From an uncultured Oscillospiraceae bacterium (lineage in GTDB: Bacteria > Bacillota > Clostridia > Christensenellales > CAG-138), in assembly GCA_964490325.1 (NCBI GenBank), contig CAZBBX010000009.1:1859-65858 (forward strand): a stretch of 64,000 nucleotides of DNA, written 5' to 3'. The position numbers and the translations under genes are program-made. The notes below the pieces were generated by a model that ran no database searches, was not told where the DNA came from, and worked only from the letters and a program-made list of their open reading frames with translations. Shown piece after piece: positions 28,902 through 42,185 of the stretch. Every line of letters starts with the position of its first letter. The first letter of the stretch is position 1.

Positions 28902-30020
28902 TTACATCAGGTTTTCGGGATTCAGCGCCGTCAGCTCGGGCAGCACGAAGCGGCCGTCCTTGCGGATGAGCACATCGTCAAAGTAGATCTCCCCGCCGCC
29001 ATAGGCAGGCGTTTGGATCATCACCAGATCCCAGTGCTGCGCGGACTTGTTGCCGTTGTTGCAGTCGTCATAGCAGGCGCCGGGGGTGAAGTGGATGGAG
29101 CCTGCGATCTTCTCGTCAAAGAGCGTATCCTTCATCGGTTCGGTGATGTAGGGATTCACGCCGATGGCAAACTCGCCCACATAGCGCGCCCCCTCGTCAA
29201 TGTCCAGCTGCGCGTTGATGCGTGCCGTGTCGTTGGCGGTGGCCTCCACGATCCTGCCGTCACGGAACACAAAGCGGATGTCCGTGTAGGTAAAGCCGTT
29301 CTCCAAGGAGGGCGTGTTGTAATGGATCACGCCGTTGACGCTTTCGCGCACGGGGGCGGTGTAGATCTCGCCGTCGGGAATGTTCATCTCTCCCGCGCAC
29401 TTGATGGCGGGCAGACCCTTGATGGAAAAGCTTAGGTCGGTGTCGGCGGGACCCTTGAGCCGTACATGGTCGCTGCGCTCCATCAGCGCCTTCAGGGCGT
29501 CCATGGCCCTGTCCATCTTGGAGTAATCCAAGCAGCAGACCTTGAAGTAGTAATCCTCAAACGCCTCGGTGCTCCTGTCCGCAAGCTGCGCCATGGAGGG
29601 CGTGGGATAGCGCAGCACGACCCACTTGGTCTTGGGCACGCGGATCTCGCCGTGGACAGGCGTCCAGTACAGGCGCATGTACGCGTTCATGTTTTCGGAA
29701 GGAACGTCCTTGGTCTCGGAGGCGTTTTCCCCACCGCGTATGCCGATGTAGGCCTGCATGGAGGCCATCACCGCCGCGTCAAAGGCGGCCTTGCTCTTTA
29801 GCTGCGCCTCGGTGCAGCCAAGCAGCAGCTCCCGCTCGATGGACTTGTCGGTCGTCCACACAAAGGGGTTGCCGCCGACCTGATAGACCTGTCGAATGAG
29901 TGCCTTTACAAGCGCGCCGCAGTCGCCTATCCCCTCGATCAGTACGTTTTCACCCGCCTGCACGCGGCAGGAATGGTGAACAAGATTGTGCGCAAGCACG
30001 GTAATGCGCGGATCTGTCAC
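28902..30020 (-). CDS. aminopeptidase, M29 (AmpS/PepS) family
   Basis: 372 aa from GTG 30020 (GGGAGG 7 nt upstream): (M)TDPRITVLAHNLVHHSCRVQAGENVLIEG... The track ORF is over-extended to 30692. Confidence 0.85.
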   Translation of the reverse strand: MTDPRITVLAHNLVHHSCRVQAGENVLIEGIGDCGALVKALIRQVYQVGGNPFVWTTDKSIERELLLGCTEAQLKSKAAFDAAVMASMQAYIGIRGGENASETKDVPSENMNAYMRLYWTPVHGEIRVPKTKWVVLRYPTPSMAQLADRSTEAFEDYYFKVCCLDYSKMDRAMDALKALMERSDHVRLKGPADTDLSFSIKGLPAIKCAGEMNIPDGEIYTAPVRESVNGVIHYNTPSLENGFTYTDIRFVFRDGRIVEATANDTARINAQLDIDEGARYVGEFAIGVNPYITEPMKDTLFDEKIAGSIHFTPGACYDDCNNGNKSAQHWDLVMIQTPAYGGGEIYFDDVLIRKDGRFVLPELTALNPENLM

Positions 30021-30212
30021 AGCCTTTACCTCCCAACAAAATTCCTCTTTAGTATAGCGCCTTTTCAGCGCTTTCGCAAGGGAGTACGCAGCTGTAAAAA
30101 GTGTACGCAGATGCGAACGGCCTTCGCTTTTTTTCAACAAGAAGCGCTTGCTAAGCAAAAGTGCGCATGCTATACTGTGCATAGAAACATTTCCGAGAGG
30201 GGGCGGGTCGGG

Positions 30213-31577
30213 ATGCGGGACGAGTTTCATAATACGGTGCCGGAATATGCATCCTTGGACGAACCGCTGCTTACTCATGCCAAGACCACAAAAAAACGTG
30301 CCTCCGCTCTTGCGAGCTTGACCATAGCCGCAGCCGCCGTGCTTTTGATCGCGTTGGCCGCGTTTTTCCTGCTGCGCGTACGCGGAACGGTGATAGAGCG
30401 CAGCCCGCACAGCGCGACCATCGCCGTGGACGTGCACAAGTACGGCGTGGATACCGAGCTTTTGCGCTACGAGCTGTACGAAAACGGCGTTTCCATCAGC
30501 CGCTTCGAGGGAACGACTCCCGCAAAGGACGGCGAGCTGTCCTTTAGCGGCCTTAACGCCGATACCAAGTACCATCTGCATTTCTATGACGCTGACGATA
30601 CGGCGGGTGTCCTGCGCGTGGGCAGCATCTCCTTCCGCACCACCAAGGAGGGGGAGCAGCCGCAGCAGGGCATTGCCACGTCCACGCCGCAAAACGACGG
30701 GACGCCCACAGCGGGGATCGTTTCGACCGCCACACCCTCCCCCACGCCCACGGCAACGCCTGCGCCCACGGCGACTCCCACGGCAACACCTACGCCTACC
30801 CCTACGCCTACTCCAACACCCACGCCCACACCAACCCCTACGCCCACGCCCAAACCGACGCCCACGCCGATCCCCACAACGCTCTACGATGGTCCCGAGG
30901 TTATCGAGTGGGCGGTGTACTATCCCGCCGTGTATACCACGGACGACGCCAACACCTACGGCCTAAGGATCGCCTTCAAGCCGCACGACGCCACGGACAT
31001 CTCCGTGCGCTTCACGGCGGACAGCAGCGAGGTCTACAGCGTTCCTACATCGGACATGGAGTACTATTGGGACGGCGAGGCTTACTATGTGGACACGTCA
31101 AGCTTCCACGTTTCCGCCATCGGCACGCACACGGGCAGCTGCACGATCTCGTATAAGCTGGGCGGCACGGCGGCCACCACCACCAAGACCATCAGCTTTG
31201 CGGTGGGCGGACTGGTGATAGGCGATCTGTCCGCCGCGCTCATCACACCGGGAACGCCTGCGTTCTATCGGCTGCAGCTGAGCGGGCAGGGCTACACGAT
31301 CCCCGACGGTGCCTATCCCGTCATCGACTCTGTCGAATGGACGAACAGCCAAATGGGTGGAACGTACCATATCGTGCCGACAACGGCGTACAGCGTGGAC
31401 AGCGGCACAGGCGCGTTTACGCTCGACTATTCGCAGGCCTATGTGGCGGAGGGTGTGCCGGACAGCGTCAGCTTTACCGTTCGTGTGACGTATCACTGGG
31501 ATTGCCCCGACCTGTTCGGCGGCGTGAGCTATACGCGCAGCGCTACCCTTTCAAGCAGTGCCACGGTGCTTCCCTGA
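30213..31577 (+). CDS. hypothetical membrane-anchored protein with Pro/Thr-rich linker
   Basis: From ATG 30213 there is one N-terminal TM helix ([22 protein letters not shown]), then a [30 protein letters not shown] linker (about 30740-30880), then a beta-rich C-terminal region. No recognisable catalytic motif. Confidence 0.6.
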   Translation: [454 protein letters not shown]

Positions 31578-31619: not shown

Positions 31620-32585
31620 ATGAAGAAGAAACATTCCGCCGTTCGCAGCCGCTTGATCCTGGCTGCCATACTGATCGTCATACTGCTGTTCCTGTTCAAC
31701 CCGAACTGGATCCCCTTCCTCAGCGCCGAGACGCGTACGGAGGTGAGCAACCTACTGCAAAGCACCTTCCTGCAGACGGACGCTGCGGACGGCTATCCGC
31801 TGTTCTCCTGGCCAAAGATCATCACGATCCTTGCCATCGTTGCGCTGATATGGCTGATCGCAACGGTCCTAAAGCTCATCCTGGGCGTGATCTACAAAAA
31901 GCAGGAGCGCAGGCGCACGGTGACGGAGCTGCTGCTCAGCCTCATCAAGTATGCCGCCGTGCTGGTGGGCGTCATCTGGGCGCTGACCGTGGCGGGGGTC
32001 AACATCGTGGGTCTGCTGGCAGGCGTGGGCGTGATCGGCCTTGCGCTGACCTTCGGTGCGCAGAGCCTCCTGGAGGACGTCATCACGGGGATCTTCATCA
32101 TCTTCGAGGGACAGTATAAGGTCGGCGACATCATCGTGCTGGACAGCTTCCGCGGGGTGGTGAAGCATATCTCCGTGCGGACGACCACCATCGAGGACGC
32201 GGGAGGCAACCTCAAGATCATCAACAATTCCGACATCCGCAATTTGCAGAATCGTTCCGCCAACGCGTCCGTGGCCATCTGTGATCTGGGCGTACCCTAC
32301 GAGGCGCGCATCACGGATGTGGAGCTGGTGCTAAAGCGCGAGCTGCCCAAGATCCTCAACCGCAATCCCGAGCTGTTCACCGAGGTGCCCTACTATGCGG
32401 GCGTACAGGAGCTGGGCGCATCGGCGGTCATCGTGCGCGTGCTTGCCAAGGTGGAGGAGCGCAACATCTTTGTCGCGCAGCGCGCCCTCAATCGCGAGCT
32501 GAAGATCATCTGCGAGCAGAACAACATCAACATCCCCTACCAGCAGATCGTGCTGCACCAAGGGGACGGTGACAAGAACGCGTAA
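31620..32585 (+). CDS. mechanosensitive ion channel family protein (MscS-like)
   Basis: 321-aa ORF. TM helices followed by the MscS beta-domain block LLEDVITGIFIIFEGQYKVGDIIVLDSFRGVVKHISVRTTTIED. Confidence 0.88.
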   Translation: MKKKHSAVRSRLILAAILIVILLFLFNPNWIPFLSAETRTEVSNLLQSTFLQTDAADGYPLFSWPKIITILAIVALIWLIATVLKLILGVIYKKQERRRTVTELLLSLIKYAAVLVGVIWALTVAGVNIVGLLAGVGVIGLALTFGAQSLLEDVITGIFIIFEGQYKVGDIIVLDSFRGVVKHISVRTTTIEDAGGNLKIINNSDIRNLQNRSANASVAICDLGVPYEARITDVELVLKRELPKILNRNPELFTEVPYYAGVQELGASAVIVRVLAKVEERNIFVAQRALNRELKIICEQNNINIPYQQIVLHQGDGDKNA

Positions 32586-32609: not shown

Positions 32610-32634
32610 CGAGGGGCGCAGACCCCTCTTTTTG
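32610..32634 (+). repeat. left direct repeat = terminator hairpin of the mscS-like gene (GAGGGG-cgcaga-CCCCTC-TTTTTGT)
   Basis: GAGGGGCGCAGACCCCTCTTTTT is repeated identically at 36957-36979. Marks the left border of the AT-rich island. Confidence 0.9.
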
Positions 32635-32678
32635 TTTACTTGCGGAGCAGCAGATGACTAATGTAATAGGGATTTCGA

Positions 32679-32707
32679 TTGACAAATAGCGTGTTACAAC
32701 GTAAAAT
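32679..32707 (+). promoter_or_regulatory. sigma70 consensus promoter inside the island (TTGACA-17-TAAAAT)
   Basis: TTGACA at 32679-84, 17-nt spacer, TAAAAT at 32702-07. It lies about 300 nt upstream of the 1305-aa ORF. Confidence 0.55.
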
Positions 32708-33013
32708 ATAGATAGAAAGATAACGTAAAATGAGTGTTTAGTTTATAATTACTTTAGTAATTGAACGCGGTAATACAGCAAATGGGTGGGTTATGCTGAT
32801 ATGTTGCAAGCGGATACTACGGTGCCATAATCGGAAGGATTATTTGAGGAAGGGAAAAAGCCGACCGATGTATGCCTTCTGGAAATGTTATTGGATATAG
32901 AAATCTTGAATTAGGAGCCGTATCTCGATGAGATTCTCCAAGTTCAATACACGATCAATGAGTAGTGCGTATGCATAAATTAGCAACGCTGATTATCGGA
33001 AAGGGGACATAGT

Positions 33014-36000
33014 ATGGGGGTATCTGACGGACAATACGCTCCGGAACGTGTCGAGTTGAAGGGATATCTCGCTGAATTCAGGGATGCATTGGAAGAGGAA
33101 ATCAGAGATATCGAGAAGAATGGCCAGTCTATAACATCGCTTGCGGGAGGAAGGAGAATCGGGAACCGTGGGCTTGAGTTTTGGTATCGATTTAGCGTTG
33201 AATATGCTCCCTCAATTCCGGCCGATACACCTGCTACGCTATTGATTGGAAGGGATCGATTTGATGTAACAGTTATCAGCTTTGAAGAGAATTCGATCAC
33301 AATCTCCTCTACAGTGCAACTGCCCGATCATATTGGACGTGCGCAACTTGAGAATGGTGCAACAGAATTGATGCGGCGACTAATCAAACGTATAGAGGAA
33401 AATGCAACCAAGAAAAATCCAGCCGGGGAACACATGCTTGATTGTAAGGACGGTGTTTATCCCGCCAAGCAGATACGTTCACATGATAATTTGGTTTTTG
33501 ATCCCGTCTATAACGAAGAACAGAAGCGAGCAATAAAAACCGCACTTGAGTATGATATTACATATATTTGGGGACCACCAGGAACTGGGAAAACCATGGT
33601 AATTGGTCGGATTGCCGGAGAATTGTTCCAACGGGGGCGTTCTGTACTGGTGGTCTCTCATACGAACACAGCGGTAGATGGTGCAATCGAAAAAACGGAT
33701 GAAGAGTATTCTAAGCGGCATACAACGGATGCCGCCGATTATCCAATTCTTAGATTAGGGACTCCTTCCAGATTGCTTCCCGAGCGAGTATTGCTTAAGA
33801 CGCATGTCACGAAGCTGGGAGAAAAGCTGGTAGAAAAGAAGCAAAAGCTTGAAAATGAACAAGCAAAAAAGAATGCCGAGATTGGCAGGATGCTGGATTT
33901 ACTGAAAAAAGATACTTGGGTCAAGGGCAATAAATTAGGACAAATTAAAGAGACGCTATATAATATCGCAAATCTTGAGAAGCAAGAAAGTGACATCAAG
34001 CAAAGAATAGAGAGCATTAACACAGAACTTCAACTGATAAAGGAGAATTGTCCTAAATATAGGGAGTATTGCGCGTTAGCAAAAGATTATTCGATATTGG
34101 AGAAAGAATATCGGTCTGCCTGTGATCGGTTATCTGAGGCAGAAACCATAATAGAGGAATCACCACGTTGTATACAGGAAGCCCTTGATGAAGTGAAGAA
34201 ACATGATATATATACGGCGCTGCGAGAGAAAGAAGAAACGCATATGTCGATACAGTTTCTAAATAAAGAGATATCAAAAGCAATTAGCAATATAGAAAGG
34301 CTCTCTTCTGAAAAAAACCAAATAGACGTTCGAAGAAACGAAGCTACACAAAAAATTGCAAAATACGAATTAAAGAGTTCTTTTGCAAAGGTATTTTCCG
34401 GAAAAGGTGCAATAAACGAAGCGCGTAGTTGCATGCAAGAATCAGAGATCCGTTTACAGCAGATTGAGTCTGAACTTCAGCGCACGCTAGAATTGGAACA
34501 AAGGTACAAAGATGAGATCAATGAATTATCAATTCTTAAGGAGCAGATTAAGGCTGTTAAACCTTCTAACACAGTATCATATTGGGAAGGTGAAGCGGAT
34601 ACGTTACAAAAAAAGAATAAGAAGGCAAAAGAAGAGAGAGAAGCGCTCTTATTATCCAAAAGCAGATTGGAGGATCGACTGCCTAAACTTGAAGCGCAAT
34701 GTAATGCAGCCAAAGTTCCTTTTGATTCGTTCAAAGAACTTGATAAGGATCGCCAAACAGCAGAAGGGGGGCTAAAGAGAATAAAAGACACCATTATGCG
34801 CGCACACAGTAGGTGTCAACAGCAACTTAGTGAAGAATACTCTCAGTGCTCTGCTTTTTCTGATATTGCTAAGGGAGGATCGAACAAGGAACTATTTGAC
34901 ATTTTGTGTACTCAGCTAAATATGGTTCGGAATGAAGTGAAAGGATGCAATCCGGAAGAACTTCAGAAACATATAGCTCAATTAGAAAAGGAACTGAATT
35001 CTGTTTCCAAACAGATGGACGAGATTAGGGAGAAATTGCTGGAGCTGGAAAAACAAGCCGTTATGAAAGCAAGCATTATTGGCTGCACATTGGCAAAATC
35101 GTATTTAAGTGACGTATTGCGCCAAAGAACTTTTGATACGGTTATACTTGATGAGGCATCGATGGCATCAATCCCTGCACTCTGGTGTGCCGGTTACCTT
35201 GCTGTAAATTGTTTTGTGATCGTTGGTGATTTTCTTCAGCTTCCGCCCATTGTGTTAGCATCAACACCTATGGCACGTAAATGGCTTGGAAAGGACATTT
35301 TCTATCATAGCGGCATGCAGGCAAAGGCGAAAGGCACGAATGAAATACCCGTAAATTTCGTGATGCTCGATAGACAGTATCGCATGGAATCTGACATAGC
35401 AGACATATCAAACATGTATTATGGACAGTATAAAAGGCTAAGATCTGATGATATAGCAACATGCAGAATTGAAGGACGTCAAAACTTCTACAAGTGGTGT
35501 TCCGAGAAGGAGAATGCCCCCCATGTTCACCTGATTGATACGGAAAGCCTTCATGCATGGGTTACGGGCGTTCGCAGACCAAAAGGTCATAGCCGACTAA
35601 ATTGCTTTTCCGCCGCGGTCGATGTTGATTTAGCGTTTAGTTTGCTGAAAAATAAACTTCTTGCACTTGATCCCAATACCGCAAAACCAGTAACAGAATC
35701 ATCGATTCTTATTGTGGCGCCATACAAACCGCATGTAAAACGGCTCAGTAAGTTAATTGAACTAGAGTATCGGAATCGCGGCTTCAAAGAAGACCTAAAC
35801 TATATTCGTGCCGGGACCATTCACAGTTTTCAGGGAAGCGAAGCTGATATTGTAATATTTGATCTTGTGATTGATGAACCACACTGGAAGGCGAATTTGT
35901 TTATGACGGAATCGGGTATTAATGATGATCTTCGAAAGATGTTTAATGTGGCAATTACAAGAGCAAAGTATCAATTGTTCATTGTGGGTAATTTTGCATA

Positions 36001-36931
36001 TTGTCAAAAACATGCAAAAAATAACGCCTTGTCCGACTTGCTCAATAAGCTTATTCTCAAAAATAGACTAGAAAAGATCGATGCAAAACAACTGTTTCCC
36101 AACATTACATTTTCTAGACAAACCGATGTGTTATGTACCAATATCCATGCCTATAAGCATATTCTTTGCCGTGAAGCGTCTTTTGATGCATACTTTATGG
36201 AGGACATTCGCAGCTTCAAACAACGTTTGATAATATATTCCCCGTTTATCACCGAAAGTCGCCTGTGCTGCCTACTTCCACATTTTGCCGATGCGGTGTC
36301 TGCAGGGAAGCAAATCATTGTTGTTACGAAAACGGTATCAGAGCGTAATAAAGGCGAAGTGGGGTCGTATCAGAAATGTGAGGAGGAGTTGCGCAGCATT
36401 GGTGTGAGCGTACTTCATAAAAAGGGAATGCACGAAAAGTTGATTTTCGTAGATAGTGAAGCGTTGTGGATCGGTTCATTGAATGCATTGAGCTATACTG
36501 GCTTGACTGGTGAAATCATGTATCGACTAGAAGACGCAACTCAAACGAAAGAACACGAAGATATCTATTATATTGAGAGTATTTGTGATGCGGTGGATCA
36601 TAGCTACGAACAGAAATGTCCTATTTGTAATAATGAAATGGTTATTCGAGATTGCAGCGATGGCGGAATTTATTGGAAGTGTATTAACTGTGACTATTCA
36701 AGAAACTATCTACAACAGTACCCGAAGGATGGAATTATGCGTTGTAAATGTGGAGCTGAATATGTTTTCTCCATGAAAAAAGAACCAAGGTGGGTTTGTT
36801 CCAAGGATCCACATCACTACCAAACAATACACAGAAGTGATCTTCTACTAAATAAGATGGCAGCACTAATACCAACAAAGGCTGACAGAGAGAGGGTTAA
36901 TGCATACTTTGACAGCCATAAGGGGGAGTGA
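33014..36931 (+). CDS. Upf1/DNA2-like SF1 helicase with coiled-coil insertion, fused to a PLD-family (single HKD) nuclease domain and two zinc ribbons; candidate single-gene anti-phage defence protein (Mokosh type II-like architecture)
   Basis: 1305-aa ORF with an AAGGGGA RBS. Helicase motifs in order: GPPGTGKT (33572-33595), VLVVSHTNTAVD, ILDEAS (DEAS 35150-35161), VIVGDFLQLPP, LDRQYRM, TIHSFQGSEADIVIFD, FNVAITRAK. HKD motif HEKLIFVD-x6-GSLN (36431-36484). CPIC-x17-CINC (36617-36691) and CKC-x15-C-x4-HH (36743-36817). Confidence 0.9.
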   Translation: MGVSDGQYAPERVELKGYLAEFRDALEEEIRDIEKNGQSITSLAGGRRIGNRGLEFWYRFSVEYAPSIPADTPATLLIGRDRFDVTVISFEENSITISSTVQLPDHIGRAQLENGATELMRRLIKRIEENATKKNPAGEHMLDCKDGVYPAKQIRSHDNLVFDPVYNEEQKRAIKTALEYDITYIWGPPGTGKTMVIGRIAGELFQRGRSVLVVSHTNTAVDGAIEKTDEEYSKRHTTDAADYPILRLGTPSRLLPERVLLKTHVTKLGEKLVEKKQKLENEQAKKNAEIGRMLDLLKKDTWVKGNKLGQIKETLYNIANLEKQESDIKQRIESINTELQLIKENCPKYREYCALAKDYSILEKEYRSACDRLSEAETIIEESPRCIQEALDEVKKHDIYTALREKEETHMSIQFLNKEISKAISNIERLSSEKNQIDVRRNEATQKIAKYELKSSFAKVFSGKGAINEARSCMQESEIRLQQIESELQRTLELEQRYKDEINELSILKEQIKAVKPSNTVSYWEGEADTLQKKNKKAKEEREALLLSKSRLEDRLPKLEAQCNAAKVPFDSFKELDKDRQTAEGGLKRIKDTIMRAHSRCQQQLSEEYSQCSAFSDIAKGGSNKELFDILCTQLNMVRNEVKGCNPEELQKHIAQLEKELNSVSKQMDEIREKLLELEKQAVMKASIIGCTLAKSYLSDVLRQRTFDTVILDEASMASIPALWCAGYLAVNCFVIVGDFLQLPPIVLASTPMARKWLGKDIFYHSGMQAKAKGTNEIPVNFVMLDRQYRMESDIADISNMYYGQYKRLRSDDIATCRIEGRQNFYKWCSEKENAPHVHLIDTESLHAWVTGVRRPKGHSRLNCFSAAVDVDLAFSLLKNKLLALDPNTAKPVTESSILIVAPYKPHVKRLSKLIELEYRNRGFKEDLNYIRAGTIHSFQGSEADIVIFDLVIDEPHWKANLFMTESGINDDLRKMFNVAITRAKYQLFIVGNFAYCQKHAKNNALSDLLNKLILKNRLEKIDAKQLFPNITFSRQTDVLCTNIHAYKHILCREASFDAYFMEDIRSFKQRLIIYSPFITESRLCCLLPHFADAVSAGKQIIVVTKTVSERNKGEVGSYQKCEEELRSIGVSVLHKKGMHEKLIFVDSEALWIGSLNALSYTGLTGEIMYRLEDATQTKEHEDIYYIESICDAVDHSYEQKCPICNNEMVIRDCSDGGIYWKCINCDYSRNYLQQYPKDGIMRCKCGAEYVFSMKKEPRWVCSKDPHHYQTIHRSDLLLNKMAALIPTKADRERVNAYFDSHKGE

Positions 36932-36956
36932 GTGGTATTACTGATTGCCTACAGAG

Positions 36957-36983
36957 GAGGGGCGCAGACCCCTCTTTTTTTGT
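36957..36983 (+). repeat. right direct repeat = second copy of the terminator hairpin (GAGGGG-cgcaga-CCCCTC-TTTTTTTGT)
   Basis: Identical core to 32610-32632. It also serves as the terminator of the island gene. Confidence 0.9.
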
Positions 36984-37031
36984 GCGGCGGCGGCAGAGGG
37001 ACGGCGGGGAGAAGGCGCTGCTAAAAAAACA

Positions 37032-37060
37032 TTGACAAACGACAAAAAATATGGTTAAAT
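37032..37060 (+). promoter_or_regulatory. promoter (TTGACA-17-TTAAAT) upstream of the XRE-cupin regulator
   Basis: Hexamers at 37032-37 and 37055-60. Confidence 0.5.
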
Positions 37061-37113
37061 CCTGCTTGTTGGTTTAGTGAATGTAAACTTTATGTTTAGA
37101 AAGGGTTGACCGC

Positions 37114-37653
37114 ATGGAGATCGGCGAAAAGATCAAAAGGCTGCGCTTGCGCTTGGGTCTGACGCAGGAGGAGCTTGCGGCTCGAACGGAGCTGACCAAA
37201 GGCTTTATCTCGCAGCTGGAGCGCGACATCACCTCGCCCTCCATTGCAACGCTTATGGACATTTTAGAGGCGCTCGGCACGGACATCAGCAGCTTTTTCA
37301 GCGAACGCGTGGACGAAAAGGTGGTCTGGCCCGCCGAGGACATGTTCCTCAAGGAGGACGAAGACGCGGGGCTCACCATCCGTTGGGTGGTGGCAAGCGC
37401 GCAAAAGAACGGCATGGAGCCGATCTTTGTGACGCTGCAAAGCGGCGCGAGTACGCAGCAAAGCGATCCGCACGAGGGCGAGGAGTTTGGCTACGTCCTA
37501 AGCGGCACCGTTACGCTGATAGACGGCGATACGCGCTATCGCGTCAAAAAGGGAGACGGCTTTTATCTGCGCCCCAAGGGGGTACACTACTTGGTAAACA
37601 GCGGCAAGCGGCAGGCAGAGGTGCTGTGGGTCAGCGCGCCGCCCTCATTCTGA
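37114..37653 (+). CDS. XRE-family HTH + cupin domain transcriptional regulator (PuuR-like)
   Basis: [41 protein letters not shown], with a C-terminal cupin ([16 protein letters not shown]). Precedes potABCD. Confidence 0.85.
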
Positions 37654-41734: not shown

Positions 41735-42185
41735 GCCGTCTGCGACGGCTTCGCCAAAAAGCGCACGCTTTTTGACGAGACTGCTTTGGCCGTCTGCGAC
41801 GGCTTCGTCAAAAAACCGCCGTTTTTTGACGAGTCTGCTGCGGCAGGGCTTTCTCTTGCCCTTTTGGAGACCCAAAAGGGCAAGCAAGGTATCAAATCCG
41901 CCGCACATGTCGCCGGTATTAGCCGTCTATGACGGCTTCGCCAAAAAGCGCACGCTTTTTGACGAGACTGCTGCGGCAGGGCTTTCTCTTACCCTTTTGG
42001 AGACCCAAAAGGGCAAGCAAGGTATCAAAACCGCCGCGCATGTCGCCGGTTTTGATGGAGCTGATGGTTGTTCCCTTGCTGCTTGCGTTGTCGGATCGGC
42101 GGAGCGATCCGATGGTTGCTTATGGACGTTCCTTCGTTTATTCCATTGTCGGATCGGCGGAGCGATCCGACGGTTACTTTTTCAT
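41735..42185 (+). repeat. composite array of the multi-hairpin repeat family (about 2.5 tandem units)
   Basis: Modules present. H0 (GCCGTCTGCGACGGC): 41735-49, 41789-803, 41922-36. H1 (TCGCCAAAAAGCGCACGCTTTTTGACGA type): 41751-78, 41805-32, 41938-65. H2 (CTTGCCCTTTTGG-agac-CCAAAAGGGCAAG): 41855-84, 41988-42017. H4 (GTCGGATCGgcggagCGATCCGA): 42090-113, 42148-171. Confidence 0.85.

What the first reader, a model, noticed from the sequence alone, without database searches (positions are those of the whole stretch)
32610..36983. AT-rich 4.3-kb single-gene island inserted at the mscS terminator and bounded by a duplicated terminator hairpin
Seen directly: base composition and codon choice change abruptly at about 32635 and revert at about 36957. 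By eye the interior is roughly 40 percent GC and the flanks are above 60 percent; this needs to be computed. The 23-nt sequence GAGGGGCGCAGACCCCTCTTTTT, a stem-loop plus T-run, occurs at both borders (32610-32632 and 36957-36979). Just outside each copy there is further degenerate similarity: left ..GTTTACTTGCGGAGCAGCAG, right ..GTGCGGCGGCGGCAG. Inference: horizontally acquired DNA integrated at, or by recombination through, the terminator of the mscS-like gene, so that the host terminator now closes both mscS and the cargo gene. Unusually, no integrase, transposase, tRNA gene or other mobility function lies inside or next to the island.
Basis: partly seen in the sequence, partly recalled or inferred. 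Interest (0 to 1): 0.85.

Follow-up and report, generated by a model that had tools for sequence, protein, structure and literature searches.

The report
Defence-gene island flanked by duplicated terminator
A 4.3-kb piece of foreign DNA carrying one anti-phage defence gene (a helicase-nuclease of the Mokosh type II kind) sits exactly at the transcription terminator of a host channel gene in some strains of an uncultured gut or sewage bacterium and is absent in others; the only unusual feature is that it has a perfect 23-base copy of that terminator at each end and no mobility gene.

Summary
The DNA between the copies is 41.0% GC against 60.8% outside. The cargo gene has GC3 0.38 against 0.78-0.87 in its neighbours.

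Metagenome contigs of the same species give at least 8 empty sites (mscS, one hairpin, XRE-cupin/potABCD) and 6 filled sites with identical junctions. This is a strain-variable insertion of 4,346 bp.

The cargo (33014-36931, 1305 aa) is an Upf1-like SF1 helicase with a roughly 415-aa coiled-coil insert, a C-terminal PLD nuclease with an intact HxK(x4)D motif, and Zn-ribbons. That is the type II Mokosh architecture, and the best PADLOC hits are MkoA and MkoC. The island carries its own promoter-like site.

There is no integrase, transposase, tRNA gene or terminal inverted repeat. Across the 47 other homologue loci surveyed (about 15-20 distinct genomic contexts), none has a comparable flanking repeat, so the duplication is specific to this insertion and is not a family trait.

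The most likely route is conservative, Campbell-type recombination through a 23-bp identity, as in an att-flanked island lacking its own integrase. The recombinase and the donor are unknown. The defence cargo is ordinary; the borders are mildly unusual.

The parts
31620..32585 (+). Host mscS-like gene (321 aa), left flank of the insertion site
   Evidence: Pfam MS_channel_2nd, MS_channel_3rd and MS_channel_1st. GC3 is 0.857. The identical protein is found on both filled and empty contigs.
32611..32633 (+). Left copy of the 23-bp direct repeat: the mscS intrinsic terminator hairpin GAGGGG-CGCAGA-CCCCTC plus T5 (attL-like junction)
   Evidence: In empty alleles this is the only copy.
32634..36956 (+). 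Island-specific DNA, 4323 bp, 41.0% GC, absent from empty alleles
   Evidence: BLAST of empty contigs jumps from 32633 to 36957 with a 23-nt overlap.
32679..32707 (+). Promoter-like site TTGACA-17-TAAAAT (11 of 12) carried by the island, about 300 nt upstream of the cargo start codon
   Evidence: This is a consensus match only and has not been tested.
32714..33013 (+). Predicted long 5' leader of the cargo gene, with no ORF of 36 aa or more
   Evidence: no Rfam family; fold z = -2.48. Its function is unknown.
33014..36931 (+). Cargo gene: 1305-aa type II Mokosh-like helicase-PLD nuclease
   Evidence: Pfam AAA_11 8.7e-35, AAA_12 8.8e-24, PLDc_2 1.8e-5. PADLOC MkoA 8.1e-55, MkoC 1.8e-46. Upf1, Dna2 and IGHMBP2 in PDB and NCBIfam. 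More than 400 homologues.
33014..33418 (+). N-terminal helix/beta-barrel/helix domain (aa 1-135)
   Evidence: AlphaFold2 model, mean pLDDT 72.9. Weak Foldseek matches to the N-terminal regions of IGHMBP2, Upf1 and Dna2, E 6e-3 to 4e-2, TMq up to 0.46.
33509..33808 (+). Helicase RecA1 start with Walker A GPPGTGKT (aa 187-194)
   Evidence: Invariant in the family alignment A1.
33809..35053 (+). About 415-aa E/K/L-rich coiled-coil-like insertion between Walker A and Walker B
   Evidence: Composition. Weak SMC-type hits. Least conserved part of A1.
35054..36052 (+). Helicase motifs II-VI (DEAS at aa 713-716; AAA_12)
36179..36562 (+). PLD-family nuclease domain with H1140-x-K1142-x4-D1147 and G1154-S-L-N1157
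   Evidence: PLDc_2. PADLOC MkoC, DrmC and MkoB cover this region. The motif residues are invariant in 20 family members.
36611..36823 (+). C-terminal Cys-rich Zn-ribbon region (C1202, C1205, C1223; C1244, C1246, C1262, H1268)
   Evidence: Weak Zn_ribbon_Top1 hit. The Cys and His residues are invariant in A1.
36957..36979 (+). Right copy of the 23-bp direct repeat: terminator now closing the cargo gene (attR-like junction), followed by host DNA
37114..37653 (+). Host XRE-HTH/cupin regulator, right flank, followed by potABCD-like transporter genes

Best explanation
This is a horizontally acquired, strain-variable, single-gene anti-phage defence island.

**Cargo (inferred from homology).** The gene encodes a type II Mokosh-like protein: an Upf1-like SF1 helicase fused to a PLD-family nuclease, with extra C-terminal Zn-ribbons. 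It is probably transcribed from a promoter that the island carries. By analogy with tested Mokosh systems, it probably uses ATP-driven translocation on phage RNA, ssDNA or replication intermediates to license cleavage by the PLD nuclease.

**Insertion (inferred from the junctions).** The island entered the chromosome by a conservative, Campbell-type crossover. The crossover took place inside a 23-bp sequence that the incoming DNA shared with the intrinsic terminator of mscS. That reaction produces the observed structure: host-left, 23-mer, island, 23-mer, host-right. It leaves a working terminator behind both mscS and the new gene. It also allows scarless loss by recombination between the two copies.

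**Enzyme (not shown).** The island has no recombinase. The crossover was therefore catalysed in trans, either by a site-specific recombinase of another element (which would make this a CIME-like, att-flanked island without an integrase) or by host recombination acting on the short identity. Once present, the island can also move between strains by ordinary homologous recombination in the flanks.
For: **Shown**
- Perfect 23-bp direct repeat at both borders and nowhere else.
- Empty alleles equal left flank, one 23-mer and right flank: L001, L003, L004, L008, L009, L010, L133, L134. Filled alleles have identical junctions: L002/L129, L006, L007, L128, L130, L132.
- Both alleles occur in one sample, ERZ15185952 (L008 empty, L131 filled).
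- GC is 41.0% against 60.8%, and GC3 0.38 against 0.78-0.87.
- The island sits on two left-flank haplotypes that differ by about 2.5% over 4.2 kb, while the island copies differ by 0.23%. L128's flank is 99.9% identical to empties L004, L008 and L010.
- No tRNA, terminal inverted repeats, integrase or transposase.
- Cargo: AAA_11/AAA_12 plus PLDc_2; MkoA and MkoC are the best PADLOC hits; Upf1, IGHMBP2 and Dna2 are the nearest solved or curated relatives.
- Walker A, DEAS and HxK(x4)D..GSxN are invariant across 20 homologues.
- Promoter-like TTGACA-17-TAAAAT inside the island.

**From the literature**
- Type II Mokosh is a single gene with an N-terminal COG1112/Upf1-like helicase and a C-terminal PLD. 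Defence requires both active sites (bioRxiv 10.1101/2022.05.11.491447).
- Type II Mokosh is a monomer of about 132 kDa with a narrow phage range (bioRxiv 10.1101/2025.07.10.664194).
- CIMEs are elements that keep attL and attR but have lost their integration and transfer genes (PMC5704250).
Against: - No recombinase with this specificity, no circular (attP) junction and no integrase-bearing element at this site was found in any of about 20 contigs of the species.
- The donor is unsampled. The nearest homologue outside this locus is 57% identical, and no plasmid or phage carries a close relative.
- The 47 other homologue loci surveyed (about 15-20 distinct genomic contexts) have flanking repeats of at most 14 nt, which is background level. 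There is therefore no evidence of a dedicated terminator-targeting system.
- 23 bp is at the lower limit for RecA-dependent recombination (general knowledge).
- The MkoC and MkoA profile matches cover only part of the profiles. The PLDc_2 score of 25.0 bits is just under Pfam's cut-off of 27.
- Defence activity has not been tested.
Confidence: 0.6

Rival explanations
1. The 23-bp repeat is a target-site duplication. An enzyme made staggered cuts on either side of the palindromic terminator, inserted a linear 4323-bp DNA (32634-36956), and gap repair then duplicated the 23 bp. This is what Cas1-type integrases do with CRISPR repeats and casposon targets.
For: - The repeat is perfect and ends sharply on both sides.
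- The duplicated unit is a small palindrome.
- No att-type recombinase is present.
Against: - There are no terminal inverted repeats.
- There is no transposase or casposase in or near the island.
- Known target-site duplications of transposons and casposons are about 2-15 bp (general knowledge).
- No other family member shows such a duplication.
Confidence: 0.1
2. No site-specific step occurred in this species. The island first arose in a related donor, inside the orthologous mscS-XRE intergenic region. It then entered this species by homology-facilitated recombination. The left copy and the sequence after it would then be the donor's version of the intergenic region, and the right copy the recipient's.
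For: - There is borderline collinear similarity between the 180-260 nt following each copy. It includes ATTGACAAA at 45 nt and at 52 nt from the hairpin (p about 0.02).
- The window's lineage has a private mscS haplotype with about 12-15 synonymous SNPs between 31659 and 32327, next to the island. Its right flank is identical to that of empty alleles.
Against: - A second filled lineage (L128) carries the empty-type mscS haplotype with identical junctions. The private haplotype is therefore not linked to the island.
- A perfect 23-mer followed by sequence whose similarity to the host's is at best borderline is hard to reconcile with a single donor divergence.
- The sister species has an unrelated terminator and different downstream genes (L026, MscS 78% identical).
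- The leader is AT-rich, unlike a high-GC relative.
Confidence: 0.2
3. The gene is ancestral at this locus, and the empty alleles are all secondary precise deletions between the two repeat copies. Nothing was recently inserted.
For: - Deletion between 23-bp direct repeats would give exactly the empty sequence.
- The island copies differ by 0.23%, which is similar to the 0.14% divergence of the right flank.
Against: - The island is 20 GC points below the genome, and its GC3 is 0.38 against about 0.85. That is incompatible with long residence.
- Empty alleles are the more diverse class and occur on several haplotypes.
- The sister species lacks the gene at this position.
- This model still does not explain how the terminator came to be duplicated.
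Confidence: 0.07

Closest known systems
Type II Mokosh (MkoC) anti-phage defence
   Same: - It is a single gene with an N-terminal Upf1-like (COG1112) SF1 helicase and a C-terminal PLD nuclease carrying HxK(x4)D.
- The best PADLOC hits are MkoA and MkoC.
- It is carried on strain-variable DNA.
   Different: - The profile matches are partial.
- This family adds a conserved C-terminal region of three or four Cys clusters (Zn-ribbons, weakly topoisomerase-type).
- It has a long, poorly conserved coiled-coil-like segment between Walker A and Walker B.
- It occurs in uncultured gut Clostridia, and no member has been tested.
CIMEs (cis-mobilizable elements) and other att-flanked islands without an integrase
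   Same: - It is bounded by direct repeats that equal the single site of empty strains.
- It has no integration or transfer genes.
- It lies at the 3' end of a host gene, and the duplicated segment preserves that gene's 3' function.
   Different: - CIMEs are recognised as decayed ICEs or IMEs and occur beside related intact elements; none was found here.
- This island is only one gene long.
- The repeat is an intrinsic terminator rather than the 3' end of a coding or tRNA gene.
IMEX elements (Xer-dependent integrative elements such as CTX-phi, TLC and the gonococcal genetic island)
   Same: - They have no recombinase of their own.
- They are flanked by direct copies of a short, imperfectly palindromic host site.
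- They rely on a host enzyme.
   Different: The repeat here bears no resemblance to a dif site and is not known to lie at the replication terminus. Xer involvement was not tested.
Integron gene cassettes
   Same: It is a single gene associated with a hairpin-forming recombination site, and it can be lost precisely.
   Different: - There is no intI or attI nearby.
- The hairpin is 18 nt with a 6-bp stem, whereas an attC is 57-141 bp.
- There is no GTTRRRY core at the junction.
- The gene has its own promoter-like site.
Terminator- or palindrome-targeting mobile elements (class C group II introns; IS110- and IS1397-type insertion into REP or hairpin sequences)
   Same: The insertion point is defined by an intrinsic terminator hairpin.
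   Different: Those elements encode their own reverse transcriptase or transposase and do not duplicate the whole hairpin. Neither enzyme is present here.

Membership tests
Type II Mokosh (MkoC) | Single polypeptide with an N-terminal Upf1-like / COG1112 SF1 helicase | tested here: met
   AAA_11 8.7e-35 and AAA_12 8.8e-24. TIGR00376 IGHMBP2 family 3.5e-40. Upf1 7e-18 and Dna2 2e-14 among PDB sequences. Walker A and DEAS invariant.
Type II Mokosh (MkoC) | C-terminal PLD-family nuclease with the HxK(x4)D catalytic motif | tested here: met
   PLDc_2 at aa 1063-1182, E 1.8e-5, 25.0 bits against a cut-off of 27. H1140, K1142, D1147 and G1154-S-L-N1157 are invariant in 20 homologues. PADLOC MkoC, MkoB and DrmC align here.
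Type II Mokosh (MkoC) | Match to the curated MkoC profile over most of its length | tested here: inconclusive
   MkoC E 1.8e-46, but the best stretch covers profile positions 841-1121 of 1136. MkoA scores higher, E 8.1e-55 over 731-1097 of 1112. PADLOC's and DefenseFinder's own coverage rules could not be applied.
Type II Mokosh (MkoC) | Protects against phage, dependent on the ATPase and PLD active sites | not testable with these tools
   This needs plaque assays with K193A and H1140A mutants.
CIME / att-flanked integrase-less island | Flanked by direct repeats identical to the single site in empty strains | tested here: met
CIME / att-flanked integrase-less island | Lacks integration and transfer genes | tested here: met
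   The island has one ORF of 80 aa or more on its coding strand. No recombinase domain in it or in neighbours from about 22.8 to 47 kb.
CIME / att-flanked integrase-less island | Derived from, or mobilised by, an ICE or IME whose integrase recognises the same att site | not testable with these tools
   No such element appears on any contig of the species. The 23-mer is absent from GTDB representatives and IMG/VR. The full genome is not available.
Transposon / insertion sequence | Terminal inverted repeats and a transposase | tested here: not met
   No terminal inverted repeat pair at the island ends. No transposase domain.
tRNA/tmRNA-targeting genomic island | Integration into the 3' end of a tRNA or tmRNA gene next to an integrase | tested here: not met
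   No tRNA or tmRNA in the 64-kb window.
Integron cassette | attC site and a neighbouring intI/attI platform | tested here: not met
   The repeat is a 6-bp-stem hairpin of 18 nt. The left junction reads GTTTACT, which is not GTTRRRY. No integrase among neighbours.

The most novel reading that the evidence does not exclude
The 23-bp terminator, a 6-6-6 imperfect palindrome that extends to about 13-6-13 with its A- and T-tracts, acts as a genuine recombination site for a trans-acting recombinase that has not been described. In that case intrinsic terminators would serve as attachment sites for promoter-bearing single-gene defence cassettes that carry no mobility gene of their own and that insert and excise without a scar.
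Probability: 0.1. Interest if true: 0.75.

Novelty: new variant of a known kind. Interest (0 to 1): 0.42.

Why it matters
This locus gives a clean natural example, with both filled and empty alleles, of how a single defence gene is added to a bacterial chromosome without any visible mobility machinery and without disturbing the neighbouring transcription units. If the terminator-sized repeat proves to be a recombination site, it would help explain the many defence genes that lie in 'hotspots' lacking integrases. It also points to a large, untested, Zn-ribbon-bearing branch of Mokosh type II-like proteins in gut Clostridia. That branch has more than 400 homologues and repeatedly appears as an AT-rich single-gene island in high-GC hosts.

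Tried and rejected
- **Is the repeat a common motif?** No. It has two copies in the window even with 3 mismatches, none in 100-odd other loci, none in the GTDB species representatives and none in IMG/VR.
- **Is terminator duplication a family-wide signature?** No. In the 47 other homologue loci surveyed (about 15-20 distinct contexts), the longest upstream/downstream shared word is 14 nt or less, which is background. The other islands carry their own, different terminators.
- **Terminal inverted repeats.** None.
- **Plasmid or phage vector for the gene.** The best plasmid hits are under 32% identical and partial, and nothing meaningful was found in phages or IMG/VR. The leader has no match in plasmids.
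- **Known RNA family in the leader or island.** None. The single hit, at E 0.26, is a fly lncRNA model and is chance.
- **Degenerate similarity just outside the repeat.** Not significant. The longer collinear alignment is borderline.
- **Does the private mscS haplotype of the window's lineage mark co-transfer with the island?** Rejected, because L128 carries the island on the empty-type haplotype.
- **Sister species for a diverged empty site.** The nearest MscS is 78% identical and has an unrelated terminator and different neighbours. The host lineage is too sparsely sampled.
- **Second empty/filled pair from another family member.** This could not be done, because proteins from fetched loci cannot be looked up.

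Full report
**1. The observation**

The sequence and a pattern search show GAGGGGCGCAGACCCCTCTTTTT exactly at 32611-32633 and 36957-36979. No further copy exists in the 64-kb window, even with three mismatches. None of 100 dinucleotide-preserving shuffles produced a match.

The repeat finder reports the pair as the longest direct repeat of the region, with 4346 bp start to start.

Composition changes as described. The DNA between the copies (32634-36956) is 41.0% GC and the rest of the window is 60.8%. Third-position GC is 0.383 for the long ORF, against 0.857 for mscS, 0.778 for XRE and 0.874 for potA (profiles). It is the only kb-scale AT-rich stretch in the window.

The hairpin has a 6-bp stem and a 6-nt loop, followed by T5 in the left copy and T7 in the right. 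The left copy is called terminator-like. The right copy is not, probably because the purine run just upstream can pair with the T-tract (fold). Its hairpin sequence is identical.

**2. It is an insertion polymorphism**

Looking up the exact MscS and XRE proteins in public assemblies returned about 20 contigs of the same species.

- Eight are empty: L001, L003, L004, L008, L009, L010, L133, L134. They read mscS stop, one hairpin, TTGTGCGGCGGCGGCAG..., XRE. That is exactly the left flank, one 23-mer and the right flank of the window.
- Six are filled with identical junctions: L002/L129, L006, L007, L128, L130, L132.
- L131 starts inside the island. One sample (ERZ15185952) yielded both an empty contig (L008) and this filled one (L131).
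- Flanks of empty and filled contigs are 96.6-100% identical to the window, so they belong to one species.

The island sits on two left-flank haplotypes.

- The window's lineage carries about 12-15 private synonymous SNPs in mscS.
- L128 carries the island on the haplotype of the empty contigs. It is 99.9% identical to L004, L008 and L010, and 97.5% identical to the window, over 4.2 kb.
- The two island alleles differ at 10 of 4323 positions.

Presence or absence is therefore uncoupled from the flanking haplotype. That fits precise gain or loss at the repeat, or recombination very close to it. Apart from noting that the island is compositionally foreign, the data do not tell gain from loss.

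**3. The host**

The closest MscS in GTDB species representatives is 78% identical and comes from an uncultured Oscillospiraceae MAG. That genome has a different terminator and different downstream genes. The MscS cluster of this species has only three member sequences among 5.8 billion clusters. The lineage is rarely sampled, which limits comparative work.

**4. The cargo**

ORF 33014-36931 encodes 1305 aa. Its parts are:

- **N-terminal domain (aa 1-135).** It is modelled as helix, beta-barrel, helix at pLDDT 72.9. It gives only weak structural matches, to the N-terminal parts of IGHMBP2, Upf1 and Dna2.
- **SF1 helicase core.** Pfam gives AAA_11 (8.7e-35) and AAA_12 (8.8e-24). The core is split by an E/K/L-rich segment of about 415 aa.
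- **PLD nuclease (aa 1063-1182).** The PLDc_2 hit has E 1.8e-5, just under the Pfam cut-off.
- **C-terminal Cys-rich region.** It has a weak topoisomerase Zn-ribbon hit.

The nearest curated or solved relatives are IGHMBP2, Upf1, Dna2 and Sen1. In PADLOC the best families are MkoA (8.1e-55) and MkoC (1.8e-46), with partial profile coverage.

In an alignment of 20 homologues, several features are invariant: Walker A (GPPGTGKT), DEAS, the PLD motif H1140-x-K1142-x4-D1147 with GSLN, and the Cys/His clusters.

[quoted passage not shown] Both active sites are required for defence. A later preprint finds type II Mokosh monomeric and narrow in phage range.

The cargo meets the architectural definition. 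Function is inferred, not shown. The Zn-ribbon tail is an addition.

**5. The gene family and its contexts**

More than 400 homologues exist, but the nearest outside this locus is only 57% identical. The donor is therefore unsampled.

Homologues sit as single genes among unrelated housekeeping genes, without integrases. Their GC content falls into two patterns:

- In hosts of about 36%, 47% or 52% GC, the gene matches the host composition.
- In several hosts of about 57-63% GC (L011/L049, L023, L062, L075, L076/L112), it is again a 41-47% GC island.

The family therefore appears native to lower-GC Clostridia and has been exported repeatedly.

None of the 47 other loci surveyed (about 15-20 distinct contexts, since several are the same context sampled repeatedly) has a flanking direct repeat longer than 14 nt. 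Those inspected carry their own, unrelated terminators. The duplicated terminator is therefore a property of this insertion event and not of the gene family. This argues against the cargo protein mobilising itself.

No close relative lies on plasmids, phages or IMG/VR contigs.

**6. How it got there**

The following are excluded:

- tRNA targeting.
- Terminal inverted repeats.
- Any recombinase or transposase in the island or within about 10 kb.
- A genome-wide repeat.

What remains is a perfect 23-bp direct repeat that equals the single site of empty strains. This is the classic product of a conservative crossover between a circular or looped incoming DNA and the chromosome, inside a shared sequence.

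I favour this Campbell-type route. The enzyme could be a trans-acting site-specific recombinase. The island would then be equivalent to a CIME, an element retaining attL and attR but no integration genes. Alternatively, host recombination could act on a short identity. The palindromic 6-6-6 core, extended by the flanking A- and T-tracts, resembles a recombinase core site, but any terminator does, so this carries no weight.

The rivals are as follows.

- **A 23-bp target-site duplication by staggered cleavage.** This is possible, but the length is unprecedented outside Cas1-type integrases and no such enzyme is present.
- **Import from an orthologous intergenic region of a divergent donor.** It is weakly suggested by a borderline collinear alignment of the sequence after each copy, including ATTGACAAA at 45 nt and 52 nt from the hairpin (p about 0.02). 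It is hard to reconcile with a perfect 23-mer next to sequence that is at best weakly similar.
- **Ancestral presence with repeated deletion.** This is contradicted by the composition.

**7. Consequences for expression (inferred)**

- mscS keeps a terminator.
- The island brings a strong promoter-like site (TTGACA-17-TAAAAT, 32679-32707).
- It has a leader of about 300 nt, with no Rfam match and a modestly stable fold.
- The right hairpin insulates the XRE promoter from cargo transcription.

**8. Verdict**

The cargo is an ordinary kind of thing: a Mokosh type II-like defence gene on strain-variable DNA. The borders are mildly unusual and unexplained in enzymatic terms: terminator-sized direct repeats, no mobility gene and a single gene. 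There is no evidence of a new mobility system. The case is best described as a new variant of att-flanked, integrase-less islands carrying a new member of a known defence family.

Noticed in passing
window 29973-31577 (+), including 30730-30868: The 534-aa gene just upstream of mscS has no Pfam hit. It is far more variable between strains than its surroundings, at about 4-5% nt divergence. It has a 12-nt indel at 30730-30741 and an array of about 23 CCACGC hexamers. On other contigs it is called as 454 or 450 aa, or split into 162+220 or 147+220 aa ORFs.
   Followed up: partly
window 41735-42050: There are tandem duplications of a 133-nt unit (2 copies, 91% matches) and a 54-nt unit. Each holds small hairpins, and they lie downstream of the potD-like gene. 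BLAST cross-matches suggest that copy order or content differs between strains.
   Followed up: no
window 33880-33960; L128 and L130: The second island allele differs from the window at 9-10 sites. Six of them cluster within 81 nt at the start of the coiled-coil segment, giving R292G, L294Q and Y316C. This looks like a small recombination tract or a local hotspot.
   Followed up: partly
L132 position corresponding to window 33522: One filled contig carries Q170L in the cargo. Q170 is invariant in 20 family members and lies just before Walker A. The change is either a loss-of-function allele or an error in a contig with 1.6x coverage.
   Followed up: no
L011/L049, L023, L062, L075, L076/L112 versus L050-L060 and L091/L102: Homologues of the cargo are 41-47% GC single-gene islands in several other hosts of about 57-63% GC. 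They match host GC in hosts of about 36%, 47% and 52% GC. This suggests repeated export from lower-GC Clostridia.
   Followed up: partly
Table: Many homologue clusters have a longest contig of only 4.2-5.5 kb, barely longer than the 4-kb gene. This is what is expected if assemblies break at the borders of strain-variable single-gene islands.
   Followed up: no
window 32634-32815 versus 36980-37172: There is a borderline collinear similarity between the DNA after the left repeat copy (island leader) and the DNA after the right copy (host XRE promoter and 5' UTR). It includes ATTGACAAA at 45 nt and 52 nt from the hairpin, and both sites have 17-nt promoter spacers (score 42 against 29 +/- 5 in shuffles, p about 0.02).
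   Followed up: partly
window 32714-33013: The leader of about 300 nt between the island's promoter-like site and the cargo start codon has no ORF of 36 aa or more and no Rfam match. It folds somewhat better than shuffles (z = -2.48). A regulatory role is possible but untested.
   Followed up: partly
window 36948-36990: The terminator scanner misses the right hairpin copy although its sequence is identical to the left one. The likely reason is that the island's last bases (ACAGAGGA) can pair with the T-tract and lengthen the stem (-22.1 against -15.8 kcal/mol for roughly 60-nt contexts).
   Followed up: yes
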